This document shows, piece after piece, positions 1 through 61,630 of a DNA stretch of 61,630 nucleotides. Source of the stretch: a virus (taxonomy: Duplodnaviria; Caudoviricetes); IMG/VR virus record IMGVR_UViG_3300020186_000025, positions 1-61,630 of that record; one strand, 5' to 3'. The notes beneath the pieces were generated by a model. That model did no database searches. It saw only the letters and a program-made list of their open reading frames with translations, and had not been told where the DNA came from. Position 1 is the first letter of the stretch, and each line of letters begins with the position of its first letter. A program made the translations under genes and the position numbers.

Positions 1-192
1 CAGCTACCTGGCCTGCCTGCCTACCTGCCAGCCTGCCAGCTACCTGGCCTGCCAGCTACCTGGCCTGCCAGCTGCCTGCCAGCTACCTGGCCTGCCTGCC
101 TGCCAGCTACCTGCCAGCTACCTGCCAGCCTGCCTGCCTGCCTGCCAGCCTGCCAGCTGCCTGCCAGCTACCTGCCAGCCTGCCTGCCTGGC
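1..192. repeat. Irregular low-complexity repeat built from CCTG/CCAG/CTA modules, truncated by contig start
   Basis: Directly visible shuffled units such as CCTGCCAGCTA and CCTGCCTG; contains no TC or GA dinucleotide. Confidence 0.9.
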
Positions 193-232
193 ACCTTGCT
201 TTTACACGATAATAAAAATAAGTCGGCATATT

Positions 233-274
233 GAAAAATAGTTGTTTACATGTGCATAAGCCAACTGCTATAGA
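233..274 (+). promoter_or_regulatory. Strong early sigma70-type promoter
   Basis: A-tract GAAAAATAGTTG, then TTTACA (245-250), and GCTATAGA at -10; near-copy at 61070-61109. Confidence 0.7.
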
Positions 275-690
275 AGGTCATGGCGCAAGGGCAAGTAACC
301 TGGCACCAAGGGCCACCGCCCCTAGGGGCGGCACATAGGTCCAACGGCTAGTAGGCCGGGTTCGGGTAAGGCACAAGCTGTATCCGGCAAAGTGTAGCAC
401 GGTGGCTCTTGGTCCGCTTGCACGCCCGGTCTGGTTTCTAGCGTAACACCGCGCCAATGGGCGCTGTCCGCCAGTAAGCCGCCTCGCAAGGGCCGTAGTA
501 ACGCTTACCAGGCCACAGCAAGTCCTGGGTTGGCGCGGGTAGCAATCACCAGCAAAGTCCCTTTCTATCTTCTACCCTCCACCGCCATAGGTCTAGCCTA
601 TGGCGGTCGGTTGCCTGCCCTATAGGGCTTATACTTAAAGCCCCATAGGGCAGGCAATCATGTCTGCCCAACCCTGTAAAGGAAACTATA
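275..690 (+). ncRNA. Highly structured ~400-nt early leader or candidate ncRNA
   Basis: No credible ORF; several stems (CCGCCCCTAGGGGCGG; ACCGCCATAGG/CCTATGGCGGT 581-607; TTGCCTGCCCTAT/ATAGGGCAGGCAA 611-657). Confidence 0.4.
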
Positions 691-692
691 CT

Positions 693-1238
693 ATGGCAAA
701 CTCCAACGCAACGAACCGCTTCGCCACTCGCAAGGGCAAGGTCGCATCCGCCGCCACCGAGGTGGTCTCCGAGATCGTGCCCGAGGTCATCGTGCCCGAG
801 GTCATCGTGCCCGAGGTCATCGTGCCCGAGGTCATCGTGCCCGAGGTCATCGTGCCCGAGGTCATCCCGCCGATGGCGGGTCCGTCGGCCGCCGAAGCCG
901 AAGCTGCACTGTTCCAGCAACGCCAGGCTCTGACCATCAAGGCATGTCGTGGCTTCACCCAGAAGGCCAAGCCTCAGCGCAAGATGTTGCGCCGGATCGC
1001 CAAGATGGGCGTCCACCCCGGAATGGGTCTGGGGATCAAGCGGTGGCACCTCTACCGGGTCGGCATGACCATGCAGGAGGCCAAGACCACGCCGGGCCTG
1101 TGCTACCTGGACCTGACCTTCTGGGAGAAGAACAAGCTGATCGTGATGCGCGACTGCACCGACGAGGAATACGCCGCCGAGCTCTCGTCCTGGGAGGCGT
1201 CCAAGCCCAAGGAAGTCGCGGTGGTCGCCGCCGCATAG
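693..1238 (+). CDS. First early protein with IVPEV x6 repeat; putative DNA-binding domain paralogous to 27141..27929
   Basis: RBS AAAGGAAA before ATG 693; KRW..Y..GMT...D..F motif shared with the 27.1-27.9 kb protein. Confidence 0.8.
   Translation: MANSNATNRFATRKGKVASAATEVVSEIVPEVIVPEVIVPEVIVPEVIVPEVIVPEVIPPMAGPSAAEAEAALFQQRQALTIKACRGFTQKAKPQRKMLRRIAKMGVHPGMGLGIKRWHLYRVGMTMQEAKTTPGLCYLDLTFWEKNKLIVMRDCTDEEYAAELSSWEASKPKEVAVVAAA
774..866 (+). repeat. 15-bp tandem repeat ATCGTGCCCGAGGTC x6 (IVPEV)
   Basis: Six exact in-frame copies. Confidence 0.95.
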
Positions 1239-20443: not shown

Positions 20444-21001
20444 TCATGCTGTTAGCCATTGGGAAGCCATAGCTTTCGCAATTCCGACATATGTGCGCGA
20501 ACGATCCTTCCAACGATTCGGTCCAGGTGCCATCCTATGAACTCGTGCTTCGCGCCCGGTGACGTTATCAGTCGGCTGCAACAGCGGCAGTCCTTTCAGC
20601 CACAGACAGGTGGCCTTGGTTTCACCGTGACCGAACTGATGCGGTTGGATGATCTGATCGGGCTTTCGCCAATGGCTCGACATGATGCCAATCGGGTTTT
20701 CAATCGCAATGCGCGGGATGGGTGAATTTGCCAGCGCCATGAAGAAGGCGATGCTGGCCTGTTGCCGCCCATCTGCCCGCTTAGCCGGGAACCATCGCGC
20801 ACCACTGACACACAGATCGGTGCAAGGCGGGAATGCTATGAGCATGTCCCAACCGTTTTGAAGCACGTCCATCACATCGCCTTGGTAATGCGGGCCTGGA
20901 GTCTCGCTCGGCAGGAGATCGCACGATATGGCGTCAACACCCGAAGAAAGAAAGGTGTCTCTTACAATTCCAGAGAATTCGCAGGCGATGAGCACTCTCA
21001 T
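20444..21001 (-). CDS. Short DNA cytosine methyltransferase-like protein
   Basis: VLIACEFSG, AFPPCT (PC motif), IENP, K.TCLW, RS.T..GIA.AMA.QW. Confidence 0.7.
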   Translation of the reverse strand: MRVLIACEFSGIVRDTFLSSGVDAISCDLLPSETPGPHYQGDVMDVLQNGWDMLIAFPPCTDLCVSGARWFPAKRADGRQQASIAFFMALANSPIPRIAIENPIGIMSSHWRKPDQIIQPHQFGHGETKATCLWLKGLPLLQPTDNVTGREARVHRMAPGPNRWKDRSRTYVGIAKAMASQWLTA

Positions 21002-21627
21002 GCTCCATCCTCTTCATCATACCCGAATGGATTCTCCATACCAGTGAGACCACTTACTTGTGACCCTGCGGTTGCGGTGGTGGTTTGCCCCTGCCCTATG
21101 GCATGGCCCGCGCCGCCACAGGGCGGGGCAAGGGCAGGGCTTGGCCCGGTGCTGGGTGCTGTAGGGGCCGGGGGCCGGGCTTGGCCCTTAGCGGCCCGCC
21201 CTGCATCGTCCAGAATAGTCTGCAGAACTGCCTTCGCTTGCAGAATACCGAAACGTTCATAGGAGAGAGACATCAAAGAACAGAACAACTGTTCAACAGG
21301 TTTCAGACTGGCTGATTCGTAAAAACGGTTGTTGAACATAACCACTCTCTCGTTTATCATACCTCGACGATAGTGTGTCATGTCAGTCGTCAGAATCTTG
21401 TCAACGTATGACATACCCTTGAGAAGGTCTTGAATACCATTCTTCTTCTGCCACCGAGAGACATACTTCGTGGCGTTGCCAGCAAGGTATCCCATGCCAA
21501 TGTCAGGAACCCAGTCCCAATGCTGATATTCAGCTTGATAGTGATCGCCTCCTTCTTGGGCTACGAAGGTTTCACTCCCCGAGTTCGTTGATTGGGTCCC
21601 AGTAGTCGGGGTTGGAAGACGTGCCAT
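20998..21627 (-). CDS. DUF3310 (T7 gp1.7/SaV-like) protein, candidate nucleotide kinase, with Pro/Ala/Gly-rich tail
   Basis: Q.GGDHY....QHWD, GNATKY.SRW..KNG..DL.K. Confidence 0.8.
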   Translation of the reverse strand: MARLPTPTTGTQSTNSGSETFVAQEGGDHYQAEYQHWDWVPDIGMGYLAGNATKYVSRWQKKNGIQDLLKGMSYVDKILTTDMTHYRRGMINERVVMFNNRFYESASLKPVEQLFCSLMSLSYERFGILQAKAVLQTILDDAGRAAKGQARPPAPTAPSTGPSPALAPPCGGAGHAIGQGQTTTATAGSQVSGLTGMENPFGYDEEDGA

Positions 21628-22129
21628 TGATTATCTCCTTCATGAATTTATAGGCTCGCACAGTCATCGCTTCTTTGGCTTCCTTCGAAAACCAGAGTTC
21701 AACTCGGCGTTGCATCTTTTTCATGTTGCGATTTCCAAGGCTCTCTTGATCCAAGATCCAGAGATAGAATTCACATATGTCGAGGCTACCGAGCCAACGC
21801 TGGTCTTCTCTCGAGAGCGTTTCCCAGAAATCTGTTCCTTTAAGAATCCTGTCCGATGCGTCGCTATATGCTTTCTTGTCAAGGACAACGAAAGCTGGAC
21901 GAGGTGTGTCGCCCAGAAGACGTTCTGGAAGATCATGGGCAATGATAGCCCAAAGGAGAGCGGCAGGAGCATCTGGATGAAGAACTCTCAGAAGACACAA
22001 CATGCCGAAAGAGTGTTGACCGACGTCATACTCACCGATGATCTTCTGCGCGTGGACGCGGCGAACCGCCGCGCCCTCTCGTGCAAATTTCACCCGAGCA
22101 ACGTCCCCTTTGAGGACGTAATCCATCAT
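21572..22129 (-). CDS. HD-domain 5'-deoxynucleotidase-like phosphohydrolase
   Basis: V.R.H......V..HS, HDLPE...GD.P.P. Confidence 0.8.
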   Translation of the reverse strand: MMDYVLKGDVARVKFAREGAAVRRVHAQKIIGEYDVGQHSFGMLCLLRVLHPDAPAALLWAIIAHDLPERLLGDTPRPAFVVLDKKAYSDASDRILKGTDFWETLSREDQRWLGSLDICEFYLWILDQESLGNRNMKKMQRRVELWFSKEAKEAMTVRAYKFMKEIINGTSSNPDYWDPINELGE

Positions 22130-23193
22130 GCCCGACGATCCAGCCATTCGATGCAGGCTTTCCGCCAATCCAACGCGGCACAACCGCGAAGGTGTTTCTT
22201 CGCTTCTTCGACCCGCTGACGTTTCGAGCCCTCGTCTGTCTTCCAGGCGAACCATGCCTGCCAGATGGGACACACGACCTTGCGGAAGAACTTGTCCTGA
22301 AAGCCGGTAGCAGGGCCGACGTCCATGAACATTTGCAATTCGCGAATCCAAGCACCAATTTCGCTGTTCACCATCTGGAACGGTTCAACCGGATCTTGCC
22401 CTTTGATCTGAATGTAGGGATTGTCGAAAGGAAGAGGATCGCGGTCGGTGAACCCTGCCAGTTCACGAACAGGGTCCAACGTCTTCAGATAGGAATGAAA
22501 GTTGTTGGAAATCTGCCAGTAGCGACCGACGGGAACTCCGATCCATGCCGCCATGAACTCTTGGAGCATGGAGAAGTGGACAGCATTCGCGCCATAGGTT
22601 CCCCAGACCATGTCGTTGGAACGGTTCGTGACCGACATGTCCAATGACCCGTGGACGCTGATCGAAAACATGATCGTCGTGTTACAGGGAATGTCTTTCC
22701 CCTGACGACCGAGGTCATCTTCGGCCGACCACATGCTCACAACGGCGCGACGTTCATCGGGGTTTTCCCGAAGCATTCCCGCAACGCATTCCAGCTGATT
22801 GAACGGGACATAGGCTTCGCCATGAGGGTTCTGGTCATTATCAGTGAATTGCTGTCTCACAAAATGATTCACCCACCGATAACCGTAGGCTCCGTGGAAC
22901 GTTTCACCATCATCACTGAACTGGCTGATGTTGGAAGAAAACTGGCTGATCCAAGCGACGTCATTGCGACCAGCGATCATCCACAAGCCTTCCATGAAGT
23001 GGAAGAAAGGATTGCAGTCACGCTCAGGATGGAACATGACCCGCTCAAGAGGTTTCAGGTAGAGCGTGGTCACAGGACCGTCGATCAGTTTGACGTCGCC
23101 AGCGCGGGACTGACGATCGAATCCTTCCTTAAGGATCATCGCAACTCCCTTGGGCAACGCTTCGTGAACGTTTCTTGCTTCGATAACGTGCAT
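22126..23193 (-). CDS. Thymidylate-synthase-fold dUMP hydroxymethylase
   Basis: YG.R, RRAV, DIPCN, RSND..WG.YGAN (Asn indicates dUMP specificity; Asp is expected for dCMP), NFH.Y; C-terminal extension. Confidence 0.85.
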   Translation of the reverse strand: MHVIEARNVHEALPKGVAMILKEGFDRQSRAGDVKLIDGPVTTLYLKPLERVMFHPERDCNPFFHFMEGLWMIAGRNDVAWISQFSSNISQFSDDGETFHGAYGYRWVNHFVRQQFTDNDQNPHGEAYVPFNQLECVAGMLRENPDERRAVVSMWSAEDDLGRQGKDIPCNTTIMFSISVHGSLDMSVTNRSNDMVWGTYGANAVHFSMLQEFMAAWIGVPVGRYWQISNNFHSYLKTLDPVRELAGFTDRDPLPFDNPYIQIKGQDPVEPFQMVNSEIGAWIRELQMFMDVGPATGFQDKFFRKVVCPIWQAWFAWKTDEGSKRQRVEEAKKHLRGCAALDWRKACIEWLDRRA

Positions 23194-23202
23194 CGTATTT
23201 CC

Positions 23203-24468
23203 TCACAAACCGAAATGATTGAACATGATTTCCTCGGACTTTTTCTCGAGGGCAGGGACCTCTTCGTAAGGCAGAGGTTGCTCACCGATATCGTCGGTAG
23301 CGATATCGATAATTCGTTTGGCGATAACGTCAGCGTCGAAACACTGAACGAGTTCGCGGACTTCTTGACGCATACTGCTCACATCTGTAGAATCAGAACT
23401 CGCGTGATGCACCATCTCTGCGTAGGTCAGATCGTCTGCATCCATCGGGATGGACACATAATGAACATCTGGCAGGAACAAAGAGTTTCCAATGCCGAGA
23501 GGACGACCGACAGGGATAGCACCATTGATCGCAGCCTCGACGAAGACACGACCATAGAACCCGCCGCGAGGACCAAGACGAGTCGACCAAGAAGGATCGA
23601 CAAGAACCCGCGCCGATTGCAGAAGAAGGTCGACCTGATCACGCTCGATGTAATCGTGATGGACCATGCCGTTGTTTTCGGCCGCTTCCCAGATACGCTC
23701 GCCATCTGCATGAAAATACTTGTCTTTGCATTTGTTTGCAGAAGTCATATACTGATATTCGATACCCTTTCCGAAGATATCCCTGAACTCCATGTCTTCC
23801 TTCGGCGGCATATGACGGACCGCACGGATCAGGTCATCGACGTGCTTGAGACCTTTGAAAGTCTGGAGGCTGACGAAACCTTTGCGACGATCAGCCCAAG
23901 AAGGGACTTCCCGGTTGACATCGCGGAACGGATTGAGGACATGGAACCTCGGTGTCCTGATGAACGAGGAGCCGCCGATCGCCGAATGGTGGACACACAG
24001 AACAGCATGAAGCCTGTCCTGAATTTCCAGGACATATGGATAGCGATCGCAGGCACCACCGTCGTGAACGAAGGCCATCTGGACAGGGTGCTTGAGATCG
24101 TAAAGATCGCGCCATTCCCAGTTGCCTTCGTTCTCAGCATTGGTCGATGGAACCGGAATCGTCCAGAGGATGATGTCATATTCTTCCAGCCACTTCTTCG
24201 CTTGGGCCAGCATCTTCCCGCCCTGATAGGGAACCTTCTTCGCTTTGGTGAAGACCCAACCGATTTTCTGGTTATAGAGAAGTCCGGACTCAGACCTCGA
24301 GAAGTCCCCTGTCCGAGGATTTCCATCTTTCTGGTCTTTGTCGCTGTAGACAAGTTGAAGCAGATCGACATCGTGGCCTTGCCTTTTGAGGCCATAGATC
24401 AGGTCCTCAGTGTGATTGATGATCCCACCGAGGTCCATGATCTTGTAAAGGGCGACAGCGATTTTCAT
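23203..24468 (-). CDS. GT-B fold (GT4-like) glycosyltransferase
   Basis: GGI..H...L...L...GHDV; K.LK.VD.LI.A; VDPSW...YGRVFVEA...GA.PV. Confidence 0.8.
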   Translation of the reverse strand: MKIAVALYKIMDLGGIINHTEDLIYGLKRQGHDVDLLQLVYSDKDQKDGNPRTGDFSRSESGLLYNQKIGWVFTKAKKVPYQGGKMLAQAKKWLEEYDIILWTIPVPSTNAENEGNWEWRDLYDLKHPVQMAFVHDGGACDRYPYVLEIQDRLHAVLCVHHSAIGGSSFIRTPRFHVLNPFRDVNREVPSWADRRKGFVSLQTFKGLKHVDDLIRAVRHMPPKEDMEFRDIFGKGIEYQYMTSANKCKDKYFHADGERIWEAAENNGMVHHDYIERDQVDLLLQSARVLVDPSWSTRLGPRGGFYGRVFVEAAINGAIPVGRPLGIGNSLFLPDVHYVSIPMDADDLTYAEMVHHASSDSTDVSSMRQEVRELVQCFDADVIAKRIIDIATDDIGEQPLPYEEVPALEKKSEEIMFNHFGL

Positions 24469-25469
24469 GCTTTGACTTCCCATGAGCGAAGAACAGGCGC
24501 TGTCAGCGGTCCCTTCTTCAAGGTTTCAGCGATCAGGACCAAGTCTGCTTCACTCGGTTCTGGGAGTTCCTCTTTACCAAGGTGATCCGGCAAAATGCCT
24601 GGACGCATTGACAAAGTGTCACAACCATCACAGGCACCGAAGTCACGCTGTCCATGATAAAGTTTTCGACGAAGAGCATACATTTCCTCGGAGTGCCAAA
24701 TTTCATCAAGACCTTGTTCATGAATAGATCCAAGAGGAAAGACTCCTCTCCAATCATTGCAGCAGGTTGCTACTTGTCCATTCCACCGAACATTGAATTC
24801 TCTGAAAGGTTTCGCACACCTTCTTCCCTCAGCTTTATCGTTTTTGGGAGCCCCCGATCCGGCATGATTGCTGAGTTTGCTGTGAGTGCCACTGGTGCTG
24901 ACATCGATTGGCCTGATCCAGATAAGCCGCTTCTTCGTATTGCGCTTATGAGGATTGCCGACACCCCCACAAGAAGGATAATCGTAAAACGTAACGCTGC
25001 CATCAAACAATTTGTCGCCGGTTTCGAGAAAACCACAACCTTGCTCTTGCTTGATTTTCTCCAGGATCTTCGGCACCAGCTTAATCGTCTGGTATTCGTC
25101 CAAGCCCAGAGTAGAAAGGCCAGCGCCGAACATTTCTTGGACGGTCTTTGTGGAAGTATCGCCAATGATTCCTCCACCATTGCTTTCGAGCAAGATGTAG
25201 GCTTTCGGCAGGTGCCGTCGGAAGATTGCGATCAATTCCAGGAAGTCAGGATTCATCGTCGGCTCGCCGTGCATAGCGATTTCAACTCTACTATTCCAAC
25301 CAAGAGAAGCCATTTGCTTTGAAACAGATTCCGCAGTTTCGCGAGTCATCAGCTTATAGTTATTTTCTTTTCCCCTGATAGCGTTCAGACCACAAAATCC
25401 ACAACGAAGATTGCAGCCCTCTGCAAATTCTATGTGAATGACGTATGGATTTCCTTGGCGATAGTTCAT
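24465..25469 (-). CDS. Radical SAM enzyme with SPASM/twitch domain
   Basis: CNLRCGFC, GEP, SNG; C.KPF....W.G.V..CC.D....LG.I....L.EIW...C..C. Confidence 0.9.
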   Translation of the reverse strand: MNYRQGNPYVIHIEFAEGCNLRCGFCGLNAIRGKENNYKLMTRETAESVSKQMASLGWNSRVEIAMHGEPTMNPDFLELIAIFRRHLPKAYILLESNGGGIIGDTSTKTVQEMFGAGLSTLGLDEYQTIKLVPKILEKIKQEQGCGFLETGDKLFDGSVTFYDYPSCGGVGNPHKRNTKKRLIWIRPIDVSTSGTHSKLSNHAGSGAPKNDKAEGRRCAKPFREFNVRWNGQVATCCNDWRGVFPLGSIHEQGLDEIWHSEEMYALRRKLYHGQRDFGACDGCDTLSMRPGILPDHLGKEELPEPSEADLVLIAETLKKGPLTAPVLRSWEVKA

Positions 25470-26185
25470 GATTCTTTCCTTCTGTATCCTGCGATGGTTT
25501 GCCAAAGACCGCTGTTGTCTAAAGTTGGGGCGATGAATGATTCCCAACCGTTGTCAAGAAAATAAGCATCCAAATGTCTTGCGTTCTCAAGTCTCCCAAC
25601 TGTAAGATGTATTTCAAAAACTACCTCTTTCAATTTCGGAAAATCAGCGATCGCTTCATAGATTTCGTATTCCCCTCCCTCACAATCAATTTTCGCTACA
25701 TCTGGATTCGTTTCTTCCAAAACCTTTTGAATAGAAACAGCCGATACTGTTGAGATTGTTCTTCCTCTTGTCTTTCTGGTTGTATAATTCCCAGAGTTTT
25801 TCCCAGAAGTAGAAATATAGAAATCAACAAACGGTTGTTCACCGTTAATCACAGCCGATTGACAAAGAACAATTTCTTCTTCAGGGCAATTCAATTGAAA
25901 CATTTCACAGTTGAAGGGCTCAGGCTCGAAAGCATAAACTTTCTTCGCATTATTGTCCAAAGCCCATCTTGAAAATAAACCGATATTTCCACCGATGTCA
26001 AGAACCACATTATCTTTTACAGATAATTTTCCGTATGAACGATAAATCTCTTTTGCGATATAGAGATCATAAGTGTCTTTTCTGCAAAAGATTGGAGTTG
26101 AAAATCCTTTTACTGATTTGACTTCAATTTCTCTTTCTTCGACAGTGCCATTCACTATAATTTTGGCGGTTTTTGATTCAGTCAT
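25466..26185 (-). CDS. FkbM-family SAM-dependent methyltransferase
   Basis: VLDIGGNIG, AFEP.P.N, KIDCEG.E, E.H. Confidence 0.88.
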   Translation of the reverse strand: MTESKTAKIIVNGTVEEREIEVKSVKGFSTPIFCRKDTYDLYIAKEIYRSYGKLSVKDNVVLDIGGNIGLFSRWALDNNAKKVYAFEPEPFNCEMFQLNCPEEEIVLCQSAVINGEQPFVDFYISTSGKNSGNYTTRKTRGRTISTVSAVSIQKVLEETNPDVAKIDCEGGEYEIYEAIADFPKLKEVVFEIHLTVGRLENARHLDAYFLDNGWESFIAPTLDNSGLWQTIAGYRRKES

Positions 26186-26232
26186 AGTTGACTCCTATCT
26201 CATGTTTGATCTTTATTTCAGAAAGCGTTTGG

Positions 26233-27141
26233 TTATCTTCCTTTATACCGACTTCTTGGTCTTCCTTGTCCCAGACGAGTGCGCTCATACTTGTCGAACT
26301 CACAAAGCTGGAATTGAATGTCTGTCGGGAATAGCTTTCCATATTCCTTAGGCCAGAACTCTCCTTGGGCTTCGTAAAGTTGCATTATGATCTCCATCGG
26401 CTTGCCCTTGCCAATGTTGACCGTCGTTGGAGAGTCATGCCCAAGAAGGCGAGCAGCACCACGAACACCACCGGGACCGACGGGAGTCCAGCGATCATAG
26501 TCTTCGGGATAGGTGAACGTGCGGTTGTCCACATGTTGGATTTCACCACCCCAGAAACTTGTCATCATTGTGTCCAGGAGAACTTCTTTGGTCATGAAAC
26601 CAGAGCCGCCGAAACCTTTGATCGTGGACATTGCACCAGCCAAATCTCGCCAGCTTCTTGTCTTTTGAACTTGCTCCAAAAGAGCAGGCACAGCGTCATA
26701 AAGATCGGAAAGAAAGTGACGGCAAACGACTTGCGGCTTGGGAGCACTCATACCCTGATTCGTGACGACATAAGCCCCTGTGAAAACACGCAGACCATCC
26801 GCGAGGCGATCTGTTGCACAGTCTTCGATCTCCAACAAATCGAAGCTTTCGTAGTCATACCAACCGACTGCCTGAGCGAATTCGAATGTTCCGAAGTATC
26901 GATAGACTGCACAGTTGATCAAGATGGAACGAGGGTCATCATCGAAATGATCGTAGTAGAACGTCGAGCGCAACATATCCGATGTCCAATCGTGATGTCT
27001 ACGAACGTTCGTGAATTTGTATTCTTGGAGGATGGGATCATCAGTCCAAGGGCGAGGCTGGCCAGCCTCCTTGCGGAGACGGACCAGTTCCCGCTTCTTC
27101 ATGTAGTCGAAGAAGCGGGGAGTTGCGATCGGTAGGTCCAT
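26233..27141 (-). CDS. aGPT-Pplase clade 1 / 5-hmdU DNA kinase helical-domain family protein
   Basis: R..G..PWT.DPIL..YKFTNV.R..D, FTGAY, G.G..F...E, GPG..RG, DIQ..LCEFDKY.R. Confidence 0.85.
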   Translation of the reverse strand: MDLPIATPRFFDYMKKRELVRLRKEAGQPRPWTDDPILQEYKFTNVRRHHDWTSDMLRSTFYYDHFDDDPRSILINCAVYRYFGTFEFAQAVGWYDYESFDLLEIEDCATDRLADGLRVFTGAYVVTNQGMSAPKPQVVCRHFLSDLYDAVPALLEQVQKTRSWRDLAGAMSTIKGFGGSGFMTKEVLLDTMMTSFWGGEIQHVDNRTFTYPEDYDRWTPVGPGGVRGAARLLGHDSPTTVNIGKGKPMEIIMQLYEAQGEFWPKEYGKLFPTDIQFQLCEFDKYERTRLGQGRPRSRYKGR

Positions 27142-32529: not shown

Positions 32530-33090
32530 TTATCGCTTGATCTTGGCGATTTTCTGGTGATAGACGCCGAACAATTCCAGCGGAATGTCAATTCCTTCGG
32601 TCAGTTGTTCTTTCACGAAAGCGTCCAGAGTCTGCCAAGCGACGTTCCTGTCCTCCTTGAAAAGAACCGGTTCGTCGATGGCTTCAAGAGCGTCCCTGAT
32701 CTTGTCCGCCAATTCTTCTTGATCCTTGGAGAGATCAATGGTCATTCGGCGCTTGACGATTGCACCATGACCGTTGTCCTCGAGCCATTGCATAGCACGA
32801 GGCTTGCGATCACCAGACACTGACGTCCGAATCTTCTCCTGAACAGTGATCGTTCGGCCGTCGGGAAGGTTGATCTTGCCTTCCAGACCGTCGAGCAATT
32901 TGGGAATTTCATGTTCGGACATGCGGCGGACGTTTGCGGTTGCTTCTTCGAGCAGCAGCTTGAGACGTTCAACCTCGGATTCAGCAGCTTCTTGAATGTC
33001 TGCCAAAGCGACGAGGGAGGTCATCATATTGCCTCCCAGCATCATTTCATTCGTGTCTTTGAACTCAGAATAATCAGGAACTTCGGTCAT
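32530..33090 (-). CDS. Conserved hypothetical replication/recombination-module protein
   Basis: IP.L......L.DG, WL..NG.G.IVK, TL.AFVKEQ...G..IP.ELFGV. Confidence 0.75.
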   Translation of the reverse strand: MTEVPDYSEFKDTNEMMLGGNMMTSLVALADIQEAAESEVERLKLLLEEATANVRRMSEHEIPKLLDGLEGKINLPDGRTITVQEKIRTSVSGDRKPRAMQWLEDNGHGAIVKRRMTIDLSKDQEELADKIRDALEAIDEPVLFKEDRNVAWQTLDAFVKEQLTEGIDIPLELFGVYHQKIAKIKR

Positions 33091-33219
33091 ATTTTCTCCA
33101 TTCGTTGGCCTCCGGTGGGCCGACGGGTTTCTTAAACAGTCACCGCCTCTGGATATGCTCCAGCACTGTCTCAACACTGTAAAGAGTGGCCCCTATGGCT
33201 AAAAACCACCCGCCTTAGT

Positions 33220-33248
33220 ATGCTAAGGCTGGGCGCGGCAAATGACAA
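33220..33248 (-). promoter_or_regulatory. Conserved phage promoter TTGTCA-N17-TAGCAT
   Basis: Same motif family. Confidence 0.75.
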
Positions 33249-33260
33249 GCAATTTGTTTC

Positions 33261-34754
33261 TTAAATCCACGCTTTCAACTCATCCCCGAGCAGCCCAGCA
33301 CTGATGTTCTTCTTGTCACGAAGGTTGGCAATTATGTTGGAATCTATGTGACCATTGGAACAGCAGATATCGATATAGTTCACTGGATGCTCATCCATAC
33401 CAGCACGATGAGCACGGTCTTCTGATTGCAACCGATCGATCAATCGGAAACTGTTCGAATAATAGACCATGTTCTTCGCTTGTGTGAGAGTCAGTCCAGG
33501 TCCTCCCTTTTGGGCTGTTCCAACGAACCACTTTGCATCGCCGGCTTGAAAGGCCAGCTTATTTCGCTCGGCTTGATCACCATCAACACGACCATCATAG
33601 CGAACGGCTTCTTCGCCCAAGAGGTCCATGAGTTGGTCCACGTCTTGGGTGAATCGTGCCCATACGATTGTCGGTTGGAAGATCTCATCGCGAATCTCTT
33701 CCATTGCGTTAAGGCGAGGATTCACTTTGCTGATCTGGCGATAGGTGGCCTCGTCAGGGTTTGCAAGATCGATGACCGGAACATAGTTGCAAAGAATCTG
33801 CTGGAACCTGAGCAGGCGAACAATGGGCAGTTCGCCATCGAGAATTGCACCGTCTTCGAACTCGACCATAAACTCTTCGGATAGCCGCTCGTAGATTGCG
33901 AGTTGCTCTTTGGTCATCTCAAAGTAACGCTTGGAATAGAGTTTCGGTGGGAGATCGAGAACATCGTCTTTCAGAACCCGATCAGTGATCTCCTTGATCC
34001 AGACTTCCAGCTTGTCGAGGTTACGATATCTGATCAGCTTGTCAAAGCCAGGATCATAACCAAGCTCCCTCTGACATTCGTTGCGAGTGAGCCACTCACC
34101 GAAATAGGCTCTAAACTCTACAGCACCATTGATCCCCTTGCGCTTCCAGAAGTTTTCATCAAGAAACCTAATTTGGGAATACATGTCGAAAGGACCGACT
34201 GCAATCGGAGTTCCGGTGAGAATTCTCCGATGAGTCGCATACTTTCCAGAAGCGATAATACTGATGGTCCTCTTTGCTCCGGGATTCTTAATGTTGTGTG
34301 CCTCATCAAGAACATACAGACAGCGCCGACGACGAAGGAATTTCCAAGCGAGGTCTTTCCCTTCTTTTGTCATGAAGGCGTTGTAGCTGAACAACAGAAC
34401 TGAAAGTCCTTTGTGTTTGCAAAGACGATCCATCAACTGTTGATGAGGCTTGGTATGCTTTCGGCTTGTAAGGAAGACCTCGACCATAGTTTCGAGAGCG
34501 ATGTCCGGCGGCATATGTTTCGGTAATTCGTCCGATCGCCAGTTGCGCTCGACTCCGGGAGGAGCGACGACGAGCAGACCATCAATCACGTTGTTGCTGT
34601 AAAGAAGAGCGGCTGTGTCGATGATCGGCTTGGTCTTCGCTGTTCCTTGCTCCCACAGAAGGCCCCATGCAGTCCGTTGCCAGTGATCTTTCAAATGATC
34701 GGTCTGATGCTGAAACGGATCAACGACGTGTTCATAATTCTCAGGAGTCAGCAT
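33261..34754 (-). CDS. SNF2-family helicase
   Basis: EQGTAKT, DEAH.IKN, LTGTP, G.GLTLT, QSEDRAHR.G. Confidence 0.92.
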   Translation of the reverse strand: MLTPENYEHVVDPFQHQTDHLKDHWQRTAWGLLWEQGTAKTKPIIDTAALLYSNNVIDGLLVVAPPGVERNWRSDELPKHMPPDIALETMVEVFLTSRKHTKPHQQLMDRLCKHKGLSVLLFSYNAFMTKEGKDLAWKFLRRRRCLYVLDEAHNIKNPGAKRTISIIASGKYATHRRILTGTPIAVGPFDMYSQIRFLDENFWKRKGINGAVEFRAYFGEWLTRNECQRELGYDPGFDKLIRYRNLDKLEVWIKEITDRVLKDDVLDLPPKLYSKRYFEMTKEQLAIYERLSEEFMVEFEDGAILDGELPIVRLLRFQQILCNYVPVIDLANPDEATYRQISKVNPRLNAMEEIRDEIFQPTIVWARFTQDVDQLMDLLGEEAVRYDGRVDGDQAERNKLAFQAGDAKWFVGTAQKGGPGLTLTQAKNMVYYSNSFRLIDRLQSEDRAHRAGMDEHPVNYIDICCSNGHIDSNIIANLRDKKNISAGLLGDELKAWI

Positions 34755-44217: not shown

Positions 44218-47200
44218 ATGTTCCTTCTACCAGAACTGATCATACGAGCGGCCCGAGCGGCAAGCTGACTTTGACTTGCTTGGAACGATTGTGCATCGGG
44301 AGTGGTTACGTTGAAGATCACAGTCGTTCCTGCACTACCACGACCGCCGCCGGGCTCTTGACCACGAGGAGTGATTTCAACATGCTCACCATCTTTCAAA
44401 CGAAGCGGAACAAGACGATTGTCATGACCTGTCAGCCCGCCGAAGCCTGAACTCGGTCCCACTTGGAAGCTACCGCCAGCCGCTGCTCCTGGGATAGCAG
44501 CCGCTCCAATCCCGAATATTCTGTCAACGATGCCACCGAGGAAACCTGAGAAGACTTCAAAGAGACCTTTCTTTTTGCTACCTCCCCCATCAGTTCCTGC
44601 TTCACCACCAAACAACTGTTGAAAGGCTTGAGAGACAACAAGCTGAATTATCATTTTGTTGATATTGCGGATCAAAGAGCCGAAATCTGCTGTTCCATCA
44701 ACAACCAGATCAGCGATCGCAGACGACATACCATCAAAGGCAGTCGTAATGATATTCTCCATTTGCGAGGCTGCATCAGAAGTCTGCTCGATGATTTTGA
44801 GGAACCCTCTCTCGAAACCTGCTTGCATCGTAGTTTGGCTTTCAAGGAACCGAATACGAGCAGAGAGCACAGACTGAGAGAACTGATCTTGATTAACAGT
44901 TCCTTCTTGCAGCAGTTCATTGAGAACTTCCATTTCCATGGTATAAGTTCTCAATGGCTCCAGAAGAGAATCTATAATCTCCAGTTTTCTTTCCATAGCT
45001 TTGGAGATTTCTTCAACAGTCTTAGCAGCGCCACCAGAGCCACCAGTTCCACTTCCAGAAGAGAGAGCATCGAATTCTGCATTTACCATAGCAAGTCTCT
45101 GCTGATATTGAGCAGTGACGTCTGCAATTCTCGAAGTCGCGTCTTCACCGGTCTGCAGAGTTGCGATCAATTCGTTGTAACGACGAGTTTCAGTTTCAAT
45201 AGCACGAGCACGATCGTCAAGAGCACTGAGAGCACTGTCATCAGTGTATTCCTTGAAAGCCTCGTTCGCATTTCTTTGAGCAGAAGCAGTTCCATCGATC
45301 TCTGAACGAGCGAGAGCATAGGTCTCTTTCAAGCGACCTATCTGTGTTGCATAGTTGTCGATGGAGATGTTTTTAGCGTTGAGTAGTTGATCAAGTCCAC
45401 CAACTCCGCTTTGGAAAGCACTCTGGGCTTCCAGCAATTGATCAGCAACATCTTGAGCAGCAGCAAGTTCAGGAACAAATCCTGCCAAAGTTCTGAGAGC
45501 ACTGATTGTCGCCATTGCAGCACCACCGAGACCACGAATACTCGATGCAGCAATATTCGCACTTCCAGAAAGCCCAAGGAGAGCCCGATCTGCACTCCCA
45601 GCAACTCCTCCGAGAACTGCAAGGATCGCTCTCAAACGTTCTGTATCTTTTCCAGCTTCATCAGAAGACCTGGACAATTCAATCGCTTCAAGGGCAATGT
45701 CGCCGAGGACTCCGCCAGTTGTTGAAGCAATCTGCAACAAGGCCAGACGAAGTTGATTCCCATTCGTTGTTCCATCTTGGAGACCAGCAATCAAAATTAG
45801 AAGTTGAGCAGCACTAGCTGCTCCAGCAGAGCCAGTCGACTGGAGACGATCAGCAAGTCCGGAGAGAACATCACTGAGAGATTGAGCCCTCTGTTCAGTG
45901 TTCAGCAGTTGAACACCAAGCAAGGCAGATACATCGGAGATAGAAAGACCAGTAGTCTGTTCGTTCAATTCTTCAAATTTTTCACCGAGACGTGCGAAGG
46001 CATCCGTCATAATCTTCACAGTAGCATCAACTTCTGCACTGGTCTGTGAGAAGCGATTCTCGTTTGCAAGACGATCAAATTGATCGTTGATCGCTTTCAG
46101 CCTGTCAATATAAACATTTGAAGTCCCTGTAAACAGATCGACTGCCGCATTGTTCTTTGTCAACTCAGCAGTGACATCAGCAAAGGCTTCTTCTTCACGT
46201 CGAAGTGCTTCTTCACGACGAGTGAGACCAGCCTCGAGGTCCGATCTGTTGATATAAGAATCATAAGCAGAAGTGGCTTTCTCAATAGCCTCAGTCGTTC
46301 CATCGATCACAGCTATTGCAGCTATCAATCGCTGACCGAGAGTTTGCGTGGCATCTGAGAAAGTAACTTGTGATATCTTGCCTTCTGTCAATTGGGTGTT
46401 CAAGATTGCAAGACCAGCTTTGTAGATGGCGGTCACTTTTGCGATATCTTCTTGAACCTTAGCTGCTCTTTCAAATTCTGGAATGAAGTTGCTTATCGCT
46501 GCAAGAGCATCTCCAAATGTATCTATGTCTTTCACAGCCGCCGCGATTGAGCCACCTGCCTCACCAGCAGAGATACCGAGACGTTCGAGAGCGGCAGACG
46601 CTTCTGCCTCTGTTCCAGTGATAACTGTCAATACGTCTTGAAGACGATTCAAAGACTCTACAGTCGATCCAGTATCTCTTGATAACTTTATCAAGTTAGT
46701 TATCAGCGAAAGTGTGCCTGGGTCATTTCCGACCGAGATATCGGAAAGTTCATCTCTGAATTCTTCGAGATTTAAGGTTCCATCTTTAAGATTTTCAAAG
46801 ACTTCGTCAAGGAAAGCAGTTAGTGCTCTTGGGTCAATTCCGACCGAGATATCGGAAAGTCCATCTCTGAATTCTTCGAGATTTAAGGTTCCATCTTTAA
46901 GCTTTACTGAGGCTTCGTCAAGGAAAGCAGTTAGTGCGCTTGGGTCAATTCCGACCGAGATATCGGAAAGTCCATCTCTGAATTCTTCGAGATTTAAGGT
47001 TCCATCTTTAAGCTTTACTGAGGCTTCGTCAAGGAAAGCAGTTATAGGACTCTCTCCTGAATACTCTTTGAGAATTACAGAAACAGAGAATAGTCCTCTG
47101 CCGAAGCTTCGCATAGAGTCTGCTGCAATATCTGCCTGCTCAGTGATTTGAGTAAGAAGTTCGATCTCAGTAAACCCGAGAAGACCTTCTGTGACATCTT

Positions 47201-60575: not shown

Positions 60576-60843
60576 TTTCTGTTCCTTTTTGAGGGAGGTA
60601 TCTACTTCGTCGACACCTGTAGTTTACCATCTAAACATTCCAGGAGCAATGGGCGAGTTTCCTGGGTCTGCTTGGGCTCCACAGTTGTCTGGAGTCTATC
60701 TCCTCGATTTCATCCTCGATTTCATCCTCGATTCTTATTCTTATGTTTATGATTGCACCATTTTGATTGATTGAGGGCGAGGGAGAGCGGCACGGGACCA
60801 CTCCTAGGGAGCACTCTGCCTCAAGCCGTGCGTGGGGGCGGGT

Positions 60844-61034
60844 GAATAGGGATTAGGAATAGGGATTAGGAATAGGGATTAGGAATAGGGATTAGGAATA
60901 GGGATTAGGAATAGGGATTAGGAATAGGGATTAGGAATAGGGATTAGGAATAGGGATTAGGAATAGGGATTAGGAATAGGGATTAGGAATAGGGATTAGG
61001 AATAGGGATTAGGAATAGGGATTAGGAATAGGGA
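60844..61034. repeat. 13-bp tandem repeat GAATAGGGATTAG x~14.7
   Basis: Exact period of 13. Confidence 0.97.
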
Positions 61035-61069
61035 GCCACTGGCCACTGGCACTGGCAGGCTGGCAGGCA

Positions 61070-61109
61070 GAAAATAGTTGTTTACATATGCACAAGTTAG
61101 GTGTAGGCT
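61070..61109 (+). promoter_or_regulatory. Early promoter TTTACA-N17-TAGGCT
   Basis: GAAAATAGTTGTTTACAT-TGCA-AAG shared with the promoter at 233-274. Confidence 0.75.
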
Positions 61110-61146
61110 AACGGTAGGGCAATACCGCCCACATAGGTTAATAAAC

Positions 61147-61446
61147 ATGCCACGCACCCCACCCGGGCCCATACACAACTGGCGCAGCACCTACACTGCT
61201 ATGCACATAGCACACCTGCAACAACAACGGGTTGTAGAAATGCTTGTGCAGGCGCTGTGCTGTGCAGTTGCTAACCGCCAGCACGCCACCACAATAGCAG
61301 CGCTAGAAAATTCTATTGCAGCGGCAGCCACTGTGGAAAATAGCATGTTGCTGGCATTGCCTGGCATTGCCCAGTTGTTGCCTACGCTGCAAACAATGCC
61401 CGGGCTAGGTGTGGCCAGCGGCAGTGCAATAGGCAATAGGCAATAG
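61147..61446 (+). CDS. Hypothetical early protein nearly devoid of TC/GA dinucleotides
   Basis: Follows a promoter; 99 aa with no Asp, no Phe, and Glu only as GAA. Confidence 0.5.
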   Translation: MPRTPPGPIHNWRSTYTAMHIAHLQQQRVVEMLVQALCCAVANRQHATTIAALENSIAAAATVENSMLLALPGIAQLLPTLQTMPGLGVASGSAIGNRQ

Positions 61447-61497
61447 GCAATAGGCAATAGGCCACACCTGGGCTAGCCCAGGTGTGGCCTATTGCCT
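61426..61497. repeat. GCAATAG x5 running into a 46-bp perfect palindrome (61452-61497)
   Basis: AGGCAATAGGCCACACCTGGGCT|AGCCCAGGTGTGGCCTATTGCCT. Confidence 0.95.
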
Positions 61498-61513
61498 TGC
61501 CATGCTAGCCCAG

Positions 61514-61630
61514 GTCTGTCAGTGTCTGTCAGTGTCTGTCGGCGTCAGTGTCTGTCGGCGTCAGTGTCTGTCGGCGTCAGTGTCTGTCGGCGTCAGTGTC
61601 TGTCGGCGTCAGTGTCTGTCGGCGTCAGTG
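61514..61630. repeat. 16-bp tandem repeat GTCAGTGTCTGTCGGC x6+, truncated by contig end
   Basis: Six full copies from 61528 plus partial copies. Confidence 0.97.

What the first reader, a model, noticed from the sequence alone, without database searches (positions are those of the whole stretch)
275..681. Strand-specific GA exclusion across a ~400-nt structured early leader
Seen: no GA on the plus strand from 275 to 681, although TC occurs many times, so the template strand has no TC. The region lies between the strongest early promoter and the first gene and folds into many hairpins. Inference: an unmodified template runway lets host RNA polymerase make an RNA, such as a put-like antiterminator or anti-pausing element, that enables read-through of modified DNA. 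Alternatives are a stand-alone ncRNA, or selection against GA/GGA in the RNA itself.
Basis: partly seen in the sequence, partly recalled or inferred. Interest (0 to 1): 0.75.

Follow-up and report, generated by a model that had tools for sequence, protein, structure and literature searches.

The report
Phage control region lacking TC/GA
The 400-base stretch without GA is real and is one piece of a control region, shared by a group of uncultured phages, from which one two-letter DNA word has been purged, probably so that the phage's own chemical marking of its DNA cannot touch the place where the host first starts reading it.

Summary
Confirmed: window 275-681 has 0 GA against 24.4 expected and 21 TC. 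It is not an isolated oddity. The window is a whole 61.6-kb phage contig whose two ends belong to one noncoding island of about 1.7 kb, between the terminase side and the early genes. In it 5'-TC-3' is missing from one or both strands. Among relatives with at least 2.5 kb upstream sequence, 20 of 27 with TerL identity of 65% or more have GA- or TC-free runs of 274-1043 nt; 0 of 19 more distant ones do. In at least 12 relatives the island holds a real gene written almost without GA or TC. The phage carries a thymidine-hypermodification gene set. In this clade only, six-base palindromes containing TC/GA escape the avoidance seen for the others (0.94 against 0.53), so TC is probably the modified context. 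Best reading: an island that cannot be modified, for immediate-early transcription by host RNA polymerase. The leader RNA is structured, with 30 compensatory pairs against one homologue. That fold occurs in only two lineages. The put-like idea is untested and not needed to explain the exclusion.

The parts
1..207 (.). Left contig end: tandem array (GCCT-based, 50-nt period) with no GA and no TC on the + strand, so no TC on either strand
   Evidence: Tandem repeats 11-190. First GA at 208, first TC at 223. Per-100-nt counts are 0 GA and 0 TC in 1-200.
231..274 (+). Predicted early promoter P1: TTGAAA 231-236, TTTACA 245-250, 18-nt spacer with TG at 266-267, TATAGA 269-274. Two of the three GA of 208-273 (233 and 273) lie in these hexamers.
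   Evidence: Sequence. The 26-nt box recurs at 61071-61096. The TTTAC(A/T)-N17/18-TAnnn(A/T) layout recurs in 8 relatives. Not found by the consensus scan. No transcript data.
275..681 (+). The finding: GA-free 5' leader (0 GA, 21 TC), so the template (-) strand has no TC. Structured RNA.
   Evidence: counts, shuffles; z = -5.54; 105 consensus pairs, 30 with changes on both sides, against 0-3 in slid controls.
431..552 (+). Conserved core domain of the leader RNA: one long irregular hairpin of 42 pairs, closed by CTGGT/ACCAG
   Evidence: 76% identity of 330-556 to L009/L042. Alignment A6 and model R1. Model matches only the window, L009, L042, L204 and L206.
581..657 (+). Two strong hairpins just upstream of the ribosome site (arms 581-591/597-607 and 611-630/638-657), with no U tract
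   Evidence: Inverted repeats I6 and I1. No terminator-like site in 1-1400. A natural variant haplotype changes 628/640 and 629/639 together (pairing worked out by me).
678..1238 (+). Shine-Dalgarno AAAGGAAA (holds the first GA, at 682) and first early gene gp1 (ATG 693, 181 aa), with a 15-nt in-frame tandem repeat at 774-866
   Evidence: Homologues of the same size lie next to the island in L007 (5526-6005) and L009 (5589-6167). No Pfam or PHROG hit.
60821..61515 (+). Right part of the island: the + strand has a single TC (61312) in 693 nt. This is the template strand for leftward transcription.
   Evidence: TC gaps 60821-61312 and 61312-61515; position lists.
60844..61034 (.). 13-nt tandem repeat GAATAGGGATTAG x 14.7 (no C on the + strand in its middle part); possible protein-binding array
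   Evidence: composition.
61071..61109 (+). Second copy of the promoter box (P2): TTTACA 61081-61086, 17-nt spacer, TAGGCT 61104-61109. The + strand is nearly GA-free from here to 681 across the contig junction.
   Evidence: After 61070, GA occurs only at 61237, 61306, 61336, 208, 233 and 273.
61147..61446 (+). ORF gp0 (99 aa, no Asp, 3 Glu). Its three GAA codons are the only GA in 61071-61630. It has one TC. Its ribosome site AGGTTAATAAAC-ATG lacks GA. It is the positional counterpart of the relatives' gene gpX; whether it is a real gene is unproven.
   Evidence: similar AAGGTTAAACACA-ATG in L053. No homologue in the protein collection. No profile match to gpX.
61310..61339 (-). Predicted leftward sigma-70-like promoter (TTTCCA-N18-TAGAAT). 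Its -10 box holds the single + strand TC (61312). On the - strand, the stretch from there down to 60821 has no GA.
   Evidence: scan; positions, sequence. First conserved leftward gene is 60297-60575 (92 aa; homologue L007 7387-7665).
61426..61630 (.). 7-nt repeat x 5.3 (61426-61462), a palindrome, and a 16-nt repeat x 6.4 that runs off the contig end (61528-61630; TC present, GA absent on +)
22126..27141 (-). Thymidine hypermodification gene set: thymidylate-synthase homologue 22126-23193, weak glycosyltransferase-like 23203-24483, radical SAM/SPASM 24465-25547, FkbM methyltransferase 25466-26185, 5-hmdU DNA kinase 26233-27141
   Evidence: Pfam hits: PF00303 1e-20, PF04055/PF13186, PF05050, PF18723 2.8e-33. 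Glycosyltransferase below cut-off.

Best explanation
The GA-free stretch is the 5' leader of the first rightward early operon. It is one segment of a regulatory island of about 1.7 kb (window 60821-61630 joined to 1-681). In that island the DNA dinucleotide 5'-TC-3' has been purged from one strand (here the template strand) or from both. TC is most probably the sequence context in which this phage's 5-hmdU-based pathway hypermodifies thymidine. The island is therefore DNA that cannot be hypermodified, however completely the rest of the chromosome is. Inferred purpose: the injected, modified genome offers the unaided host RNA polymerase plain promoters and a plain template for the very first transcripts (leaders, gp0 or gpX, gp1). 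The leader RNA itself is a conserved, lineage-specific structured RNA of unknown role. Shown: the exclusion, its extent, its conservation, its action on codon choice, the modification genes, and the RNA fold with compensatory changes. Inferred: that TC is the modified context, that the promoters work as predicted, and the purpose.
For: Exclusion and extent. On the + strand, 61071 to 681 across the junction (1241 nt) holds 6 GA, against about 98 at the genome-wide rate (my arithmetic). Those 6 lie in promoter-like hexamers or in Glu codons of gp0. Conservation: 20 of 27 relatives with TerL identity of 65% or more, against 0 of 19 below 65%. Only GA and TC, of 16 dinucleotides, behave so. In 117 unrelated viral loci no GA or TC run reached the threshold. 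The constraint is at nucleotide level and acts on coding sequence. In gpX of 12 loci: Phe TTT 25/TTC 2 (TerL 90/140); Ser AGY 50/TCN 3 (89/235); Val GTC 0 of 80; Asp+Glu 6 of 1547 codons (TerL 730 of 5613); codon junctions GA+TC 15 of 1535 (935 of 5601). Specific to the island: the window's other intergenic DNA is not depleted (GA 381 against 299 expected). Modification genes. The kinase is present in 6 of 6 near-complete island-bearing relatives tested. TC as the protected context: six-base palindromes with TC/GA 370 observed/393 expected = 0.94, without 209/396 = 0.53 in the window. Groups A, B and C give 0.94-0.98 against 0.57-0.66; distant group D gives 0.77 against 0.79. Estimator control on non-palindromes: 1.002 against 1.008. 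Positive controls: YuA and phiW-14 give the signature for TG/CA (0.76 against 0.37; 0.96 against 0.68), a context reported for M6 and phiW-14 (PMC6449724, passages). Link to transcription: the run starts in the predicted -10 and ends at the Shine-Dalgarno in the window and in L009. The leftward leader is GA-free in its own sense from its predicted -10 down to 60821. In 14 gpX loci the sense-GA-free span encloses the TC-free span in 11. Plausibility from print: bulky major-groove groups block bacterial RNA polymerase at promoters; for T7 RNA polymerase, bulky or charged groups inhibit in the template strand and are tolerated in the other strand (PMC11550810, abstract and passages).
Against: No chemical or sequencing evidence that this phage's DNA is modified, or where; the palindrome signature is indirect. 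TCGA is itself under-represented (0.71). In L007 (TerL 96%) the first small ORF after the homologous promoter has 10 GA and 0 TC in its sense strand, so there the template strand carries TC. 'Template strand free' is therefore not a universal rule. Seven of 27 close relatives show no island in the DNA fetched; five of them are in group B, and group B as a whole has the TC signature. YuA shows a TG signature but no TG- or TC-free island, so such islands are not a general need of thymidine-hypermodifying phages; phiW-14 was tested only for the signature. Downstream genes are full of GA, so the polymerase must read TC-bearing template right after the leader. The both-strand exclusion in the core and in gpX is not required by a template-only argument. 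Promoters and start sites are predictions (one search did not flag P1).
Confidence: 0.45

Rival explanations
1. DNA-level, but for protein binding rather than transcription through it. The island is the replication origin, packaging site or operator region. Its repeat arrays are binding sites that must stay free of bulky thymidine adducts, and the leaders are free merely because they lie inside it.
For: Dense tandem arrays: 13-mer x 14.7, 7-mer x 5.3, 16-mer x 6.4 or more, and the GCCT-based array. The position is directly upstream of the terminase genes. Exclusion is on both strands in the core and in most relatives. The TC signature supports a DNA-level meaning of TC.
Against: It does not explain why a whole gene (gpX) is written without GA/TC. 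It does not explain why the strand-specific segments start at predicted promoter hexamers and end at a ribosome site. Nor why the sense-GA-free span is systematically the larger one (11,413 against 8,929 nt in 14 loci). No initiator or terminase binding was tested.
Confidence: 0.2
2. RNA-level selection. GA is kept out of the earliest transcripts themselves, for instance to escape an endoribonuclease that cuts at GA, or to avoid GGA/GAGG sites for ribosomes or CsrA-type proteins in long leaders.
For: The run coincides with the predicted 5' untranslated region in the window and in L009. The + strand folds better than the - strand in the two-sequence consensus (-131 against -95 kcal/mol), so an RNA is under selection here. 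UC is free in this leader (21 TC).
Against: All GA contexts are missing, not only Shine-Dalgarno-like ones (116 G never followed by A). The ribosome sites of gpX themselves avoid GA (AAGG or AGGT), so avoiding ribosome binding is not the point. TC is excluded too in the core, in gp0 and in gpX. Promoter-upstream DNA is free as well (last GA 101-694 nt before the gpX start in 10 of 12 loci, and 10 nt before it in L023 and L057). Other leaders and intergenic regions of the window are not depleted. No candidate nuclease is known to me.
Confidence: 0.15
3. The TC-less template exists in order to make this RNA, which acts like HK022 put and renders host RNA polymerase able to read through modified DNA.
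For: Position directly after the predicted early promoter. Strong fold (z = -5.54). 30 of 105 consensus pairs keep pairing through changes on both sides, against 0-3 in slid controls. G-U pairs favour the + sense. Population variants keep the 611-657 hairpin.
Against: The core fold was found only in the window and in four identical copies of one other sequence, among 83 sources searched. Islands occur in 20 of 27 relatives, with other content. No Rfam match. The fold is a multi-helix RNA of about 400 nt, not the compact two-hairpin element I recall for put. The covariation rests on only two distinct sequences, and the structure was derived from them.
Confidence: 0.1
4. No selection on GA/TC as such: chance, low-complexity repeats, or a mutational bias such as TC-specific cytosine deamination.
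For: Parts of the island are simple tandem repeats that lack many dinucleotides.
Against: 275-681 is not repetitive and has 0 GA against 24.4 expected. The homologous L009 leader is only about 76% identical over 330-556, yet also GA-free. A conserved protein family is bent to the rule. Deamination of TC would enrich TT/AA, but TT is 0.85 of expectation in the run. Background loci show no such GA or TC runs.
Confidence: 0.02

Closest known systems
Thymidine hypermodification of Pseudomonas phage M6/YuA, Salmonella phage ViI and Delftia phage phiW-14 (5-hmdU, 5-hmdU DNA kinase, tailoring enzymes)
   Same: The window encodes the thymidylate-synthase homologue, the 5-hmdU DNA kinase, a radical SAM enzyme and more. 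TerL is 57% identical to YuA-type phages. Only part of the T is modified in those phages, and resistant restriction sites point to T followed by G or C (PMC6449724, passages).
   Different: The palindrome signature points to TC here and to TG in YuA and phiW-14. YuA has no dinucleotide-free island. The tailoring set differs (SPASM radical SAM, FkbM methyltransferase, possible glycosyltransferase). The chemistry is unknown.
HK022 put RNA and other cis-acting processive antiterminator RNAs
   Same: A structured RNA encoded between an early promoter and the first gene.
   Different: Much larger and multi-helical; no sequence or model match; restricted to two lineages; function untested. The features of put are recalled, not taken from a call.
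Restriction-site (palindrome) avoidance in phage genomes; unmethylated CpG islands at vertebrate promoters
   Same: Selection shapes the local or global frequency of a short word because of what DNA-acting enzymes do at it. There is a promoter-associated zone exempt from DNA modification.
   Different: Here a dinucleotide is removed locally, to zero, over 0.4-1 kb. It is partly strand-specific and includes a gene. The motif is absent rather than present but unmodified. The comparison is recalled general knowledge.
Immediate-early regions read by host polymerase (T7 left end, T5 first-step-transfer DNA, SPO1 host-takeover module)
   Same: A short promoter-rich terminal or boundary region with small early genes, read by unaided host RNA polymerase (recalled). 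YuA-type phages rely wholly on host polymerase (PMC10914365, passage).
   Different: None of these is known to me to be written without a modification motif. Whether this island enters the cell first is unknown.

Membership tests
HK022 put-type antiterminator RNA | Encoded directly downstream of an early promoter and acts in cis on the transcribing polymerase | tested here: inconclusive
   The position fits a predicted promoter. The promoter is not verified. Action in cis is not testable here.
HK022 put-type antiterminator RNA | Compact two-stem-loop fold of roughly 70 nt (recalled from memory) | tested here: not met
   The consensus fold has 17 helices and 105 pairs over about 400 nt. The conserved core is a 122-nt, 42-pair hairpin.
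HK022 put-type antiterminator RNA | Read-through of terminators by modified RNA polymerase | not testable with these tools
   Needs in vitro transcription.
Any curated RNA family (Rfam 15) | Covariance-model match at or near the gathering score | tested here: not met
   0 matches at gathering score in the whole window. In 200-720 the only match up to E = 1 is a plant miRNA model at E = 0.19, 20 bits against an 85-bit cut-off.
Intrinsic terminator or attenuator | GC-rich hairpin followed by a U tract | tested here: not met
   0 terminator-like sites in 1-1400. Hairpins 581-607 and 611-657 lack a T run.
5-hmdU-derived thymidine hypermodification system | dUMP hydroxymethylase (thymidylate synthase homologue) and 5-hmdU DNA kinase | tested here: met
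   PF00303 at 1e-20 (22126-23193) and PF18723 at 2.8e-33 (26233-27141).
5-hmdU-derived thymidine hypermodification system | Tailoring enzymes next to the kinase | tested here: met
   Radical SAM + SPASM and FkbM methyltransferase. Glycosyltransferase-like only below cut-off. These are domain hits, not activities.
5-hmdU-derived thymidine hypermodification system | Hypermodified T in virion DNA, in a defined sequence context | tested here: inconclusive
   Only indirect: TC/GA-containing six-base palindromes are exempt from avoidance in the window and in groups A-C. Chemistry is not testable here.
Palindrome (restriction-site) avoidance | Short palindromes below the Markov expectation | tested here: met
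   48 six-base palindromes without TC/GA: 209 observed against 396 expected. GTAC: 0 observed against 78 expected.

The most novel reading that the evidence does not exclude
These phages keep a TC-less 'launch pad'. A promoter cluster, the leaders and one small gene (gpX, or gp0 here) are written as a lipogram, so that this is the only part of the injected hypermodified chromosome that unaided host RNA polymerase can read well. Its products, an acid-free basic protein and in this lineage a structured leader RNA, then license the polymerase to read hypermodified template. A genome would thus fix its own modification-free zone by spelling, and the dinucleotide it avoids reveals the specificity of its modification enzymes.
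Probability: 0.3. Interest if true: 0.9.

Novelty: new variant of a known kind. Interest (0 to 1): 0.8.

Why it matters
If the reading holds, it gives three things. (1) A purely computational way to read the sequence context of a phage DNA hypermodification: the locally forbidden dinucleotide, together with the palindrome class that escapes avoidance. It is testable at once on cultured phages. (2) A direct handle on an open question, namely how host RNA polymerase deals with heavily modified phage DNA at the moment of infection. (3) A protein family of at least 194 sequence clusters (gpX) whose composition is dictated by a DNA-level rule; 72 of the best 120 have no Asp or Glu. That is a rare, clean example of nucleotide-level selection overriding amino-acid choice. 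My literature searches listed no paper whose title or abstract describes such dinucleotide-free islands. That covers the held library only; I did not open most of the listed papers, and supplements were closed.

Tried and rejected
Near-identical DNA in the phage collection: none. tRNA or tmRNA: none. Rfam: nothing usable.

The right-end repeat unit searched in viral contigs: 0 matches, so the contig junction could not be bridged. The 15-nt promoter-box word in viral contigs gave 117 hits in unrelated contigs. These are chance matches; I used them only as a background set.

gpX: no Pfam or PHROG family. AlphaFold2 model of moderate quality (mean pLDDT 64.5). No PDB fold match (best E 5.1). gp0: no homologue and no profile match to gpX or to the L007 ORF. 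gp1 and the next two ORFs: no family.

The covariance model of the leader core found no further homologue. Phage Simon, the closest named record by TerL (58%), has no island and no gpX, so no cultured representative was found.

My codon-score gene caller mis-called the early region: it preferred the 574-aa antisense shadow ORF 546-2270. Gene orientation to the left of the islands in relatives is therefore not established, and I make no claim on it.

The idea that all noncoding DNA of this phage avoids GA is rejected. A simple rule 'template strand always TC-free' is rejected by L007. Shine-Dalgarno avoidance as the cause is rejected. A boxA-like GCTCTT at 403-408 is not conserved in L009 (my reading of the alignment).

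Sequencing runs: no RNA holder listed. The four runs laid are Logan contigs only, which stop at the repeats (nothing laid on 1-195) and cannot show depth, starts or the junction. Of the 21 variant letters listed inside 275-681, one haplotype creates one GA (639-640). About 16.5% of random substitutions would create a GA (my arithmetic), so this is not significant on its own.

Supplementary tables of PMC6449724 (per-enzyme results) and PMC10914365 (YuA start sites) could not be seen and may bear on the TS context and on YuA early promoters.

Papers: PMC6449724, PMC8989533 and PMC10914365 were read as passages only. PMC11550810 was read as outline, abstract and passages. All others were seen only as search listings.
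Full report
WHAT THE WINDOW IS. The window is a complete viral contig record (61,630 nt, linear, CheckV estimate 97% complete). ORFs run rightward on the + strand from 693 to about 13,150, and leftward on the - strand from about 60,575 down to 13,500. Pfam names a family-A DNA polymerase, a primase-helicase, ribonucleotide reductase, helicases, tail proteins of the gene-transfer-agent type and a tape measure. It also names a thymidine-hypermodification set: thymidylate-synthase homologue, radical SAM/SPASM, FkbM methyltransferase and 5-hmdU DNA kinase. The large terminase is 57% identical to Pseudomonas YuA/M6-type phages, and at most 58% to any named phage. No near-identical DNA is in the phage collection.

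THE OBSERVATION. It is correct to the base. GA occurs at 273 and next at 682. In 275-681 there are 0 GA against 24.4 expected and 21 TC against 24.4 expected. The 116 G that have a following base are followed by C, G or T only. 20,000 shuffles never gave fewer than 12 GA. GA is otherwise the most over-represented dinucleotide of the genome (1.355).

THE RUN IS PART OF A LARGER ISLAND. The + strand has a single TC (61312) between 60821 and 61515. It has GA only at 61237, 61306 and 61336 between 61071 and the contig end. It has neither GA nor TC in 1-207. Both contig ends are tandem repeats. In close relatives the terminase-side genes and the gp1 homologue flank one continuous noncoding region: about 1.4 kb in L007 and 1.0 kb in L009. 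I therefore read the window's two ends as one island of at least 1.7 kb, broken by the assembler; this is an inference. Across the junction the + strand from 61071 to 681 (1241 nt) holds 6 GA where about 98 would be expected at the genome rate (my arithmetic). The six lie in TTGAAA, GATAAT and TATAGA, which look like promoter hexamers, and in three GAA codons of an ORF, gp0. The lone + strand TC at 61312 lies in the TAGAAT box of a predicted leftward promoter.

THE ISLAND IS CLADE-WIDE AND SPECIFIC TO GA/TC. From 80 loci fetched through TerL I scored each run as its length times the locus-wide frequency of the dinucleotide. I took loci with at least 2.5 kb upstream of TerL. Of those with TerL identity of 65% or more, 20 of 27 reach a score of 20; the longest qualifying run per locus is 274-1043 nt. 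Of those below 65%, 0 of 19 do. Of the 16 dinucleotides only GA and TC behave so. In 117 unrelated viral loci (1.04 Mb, 1872 tests) four runs reach 20 (TA, CG twice, TT) and none is GA or TC; the GA maximum is 18.9. YuA (first 50 kb) has no such island. The window's other intergenic DNA is not depleted (GA 381 against 299 expected; TC 370 against 293).

A GENE WRITTEN WITHOUT GA OR TC. In at least 12 relatives the island holds a conserved ORF of 123-132 aa on the TerL strand, which I call gpX. Seven of the 12 copies have no GA and no TC at all in 372-399 nt. Synonymous choice shows the rule is at nucleotide level: Phe TTT 25/TTC 2 (TerL of the same loci 90/140); Ser AGY 50/TCN 3 (89/235); Val GTC 0 of 80 (79 of 303); Arg CGA+AGA 0 of 55 (102 of 346); Gly GGA 4 of 123 (156 of 474); Asp+Glu 6 of 1547 codons (730 of 5613); GA or TC across codon junctions 15 of 1535 (935 of 5601). 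Even its ribosome site avoids GA (AAGG or AGGT). The family has 194 clusters at E of 0.001 or less, none usefully named. Of the best 120, 72 have no Asp or Glu and 103 have at most two. There is no Pfam, PHROG or PDB-fold match. The window has no gpX. It does have the ORF gp0 (61147-61446) right after the second copy of the promoter box, with a similar GA-less ribosome site, 3 GA and 1 TC; gp0 has no homologue, so its reality is open.

IS TC THE MODIFIED CONTEXT? A paper on M6, ViI and phiW-14 concludes from resistant restriction sites that the modified T sits in TG or TC. It mentions that the M6 kinase modifies TG (PMC6449724, passages). I asked which restriction-type words are exempt from avoidance, using a Markov expectation. 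In the window (690-60650) the 16 six-base palindromes that contain TC/GA are at 370 observed/393 expected (0.94). The 48 others are at 209/396 (0.53). No other dinucleotide class shows 'with' above 'without'. None of the 14 most under-represented palindromes contains TC/GA. The same holds for close kin with islands (0.94 against 0.57), for the gpX group (0.95 against 0.66), and also for a subgroup without islands in the DNA fetched (0.98 against 0.61). It does not hold for distant relatives (0.77 against 0.79). Non-palindromic six-mers give 1.002 and 1.008, so the estimator is not biased. As positive controls, YuA and phiW-14 give the signature for TG/CA (0.76 against 0.37; 0.96 against 0.68). 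This is indirect, but it independently singles out the very dinucleotide that the island lacks. TCGA (0.71) is an exception. The kinase is present in 6 of 6 near-complete island-bearing relatives tested, and also in 2 of 4 island-less ones.

THE LEADER RNA. A box TTTAC(A/T)-N17/18-TAnnn(A/T) precedes the leader in the window (P1, 245-274). It recurs at 61081-61109 (P2). It precedes gp1 in L007 and gpX in 7 loci (L037, L073, L038, L065, L036, L023, L057), and L009 has TTGCGA-N17-TAAGGT instead. In the window and in L009 the GA-free run begins inside a promoter hexamer and ends at the Shine-Dalgarno of gp1. The leader folds far better than shuffles (z = -5.54; reverse strand -4.35). Window 330-556 is 76% identical to L009. 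L042, L204 and L206 are identical to L009 there, so there are only two distinct sequences. Their consensus fold has 105 pairs. Thirty keep pairing through changes on both sides and 8 through one-sided changes. One pair has a gap in one sequence; none is broken. Slid controls give 0-3. The reverse strand gives a weaker consensus (-95 against -131 kcal/mol; 21 compensatory pairs). This favours an RNA of + sense. Caveat: the structure was derived from these same two sequences. A covariance model of the 122-nt core matched only these five places in 83 sources. In four runs labelled microbial mat metagenome (one may be the source), variant contigs change 628/640 and 629/639 together, keeping the 611-657 hairpin; in doing so one haplotype creates a single GA (pairing).

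STRAND LOGIC, AND WHAT DOES NOT FIT. In the window each strand-specific segment lacks TC on the strand that would be the template. This holds for rightward transcription from P2 and P1 (61516-61630 and 275-681). It also holds for leftward transcription from the predicted promoter at 61339-61310 (61312 down to 60821), and the overlap lacks TC on both strands. The leftward GA-free stretch stops about 245 nt before the first conserved leftward gene (60297-60575), so it is not exactly the untranslated region. In 14 gpX loci the span free of GA in the gpX sense encloses the TC-free span in 11, and is longer in total (11,413 against 8,929 nt). L007 breaks the rule. The small ORF after its P1-like promoter has 10 GA and 0 TC in its own sense. 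So the general statement is 'TC is purged from one or both strands', with a lean towards the template strand.

MECHANISM. Best reading (0.45): an island that cannot be modified, serving immediate-early transcription. Print gives plausibility. Bulky major-groove groups block bacterial RNA polymerase at promoters, and for T7 polymerase bulky or charged groups inhibit in the template strand but are tolerated in the other (PMC11550810, abstract and passages). YuA-type phages depend wholly on host polymerase (PMC10914365, passage). Against the best reading: there is no direct evidence of modification; L007; seven close relatives without an island in the DNA fetched; YuA has a signature but no island; and the genes right after the leader are rich in GA.

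COMPARISON AND NOVELTY. The modification genes place the phage with the 5-hmdU hypermodifiers (features met at domain level). The RNA is not a member of any curated family and fails the compact-fold feature that I recall for put. The island resembles restriction-site avoidance and promoter-associated unmodified islands in logic. It differs in being local, complete, partly strand-specific, and imposed on a gene. Five literature searches listed no paper whose title or abstract describes it; most listed papers were not opened. I rate it a new variant of a known kind (motif avoidance tied to DNA modification), at the far end of that class.

LIMITS. Promoters, start sites, gp0 and the joining of the contig ends are inferences. 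The relatives are metagenome contigs. The covariation rests on two sequences. Gene orientation left of the relatives' islands is not established.

Noticed in passing
window 690-60650 (whole coding part): GTAC is completely absent: 0 observed against 78 expected by the Markov estimate. It is also 0 against 27 in L025 and 3 against 29 in L007, but near expectation in most other relatives. This looks like avoidance of a host GTAC-specific restriction enzyme. GTAC holds no TC/GA.
   Followed up: partly
window 52749-52904, inside the 298-aa ORF 52388-53284 (-); L007 15009-15163; L018 14698-14871: A patch of about 150 nt inside a structural gene, free of both GA and TC, is conserved in position in two relatives, one of them with 44% GC. 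The peptide there is Ala/Gly/Thr/Val-rich. It could be compositional, or an internal DNA site kept unmodifiable.
   Followed up: partly
window 21035-21213, inside ORF 20998-21627 (-), DUF3310 protein: A GC-rich patch free of GA and TC encodes a Pro/Ala/Gly-rich linker.
   Followed up: no
L037:2566-2961, L053:3356-3730, L041:2140-2526, L034:6215-6589 and 8 more loci: gpX is a family of about 125-aa proteins (at least 194 clusters) with a Lys/Ala/Thr/Pro-rich tail. I read motifs HRAYAQ, PKGFT, HNMPTW and GWLV in the alignments. Asp and Glu are almost absent. There is no known family or fold.
   Followed up: partly
L085 (YuA NC_010116) 33155-33325: YuA's longest CA-free run (170 nt, meaning no TG on the template strand) lies just downstream of the annotated sigma-70 promoter (33048-33076) in front of terS. 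By score (9.8) it is not significant. Given YuA's TG palindrome signature it may be a faint counterpart of the island.
   Followed up: no
window 774-866 (in gp1); L007 5526-6005: A 15-nt in-frame tandem repeat (IVPEV x 6) in gp1. The L007 homologue has a different proline/glutamate/alanine-rich repeat at the same place.
   Followed up: no
window 60844-61034, 61426-61462, 61528-61630, 11-190: Four different tandem arrays fill the island. The motif ATAGG/CCTAT recurs in them and in the leader hairpins (my reading; arrays). It is a possible protein-binding word.
   Followed up: no
L011, L012, L014, L016, L017, L019 (TerL 73-77%): In this subgroup the gp1 homologue lies on the same strand as TerL, 1-1.5 kb upstream. 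No large island was found in the DNA fetched, although the TC palindrome signature is present.
   Followed up: partly
window 46711-47044: A 111-nt tandem repeat x 3.0 (95% matches) inside the tape-measure gene.
   Followed up: no
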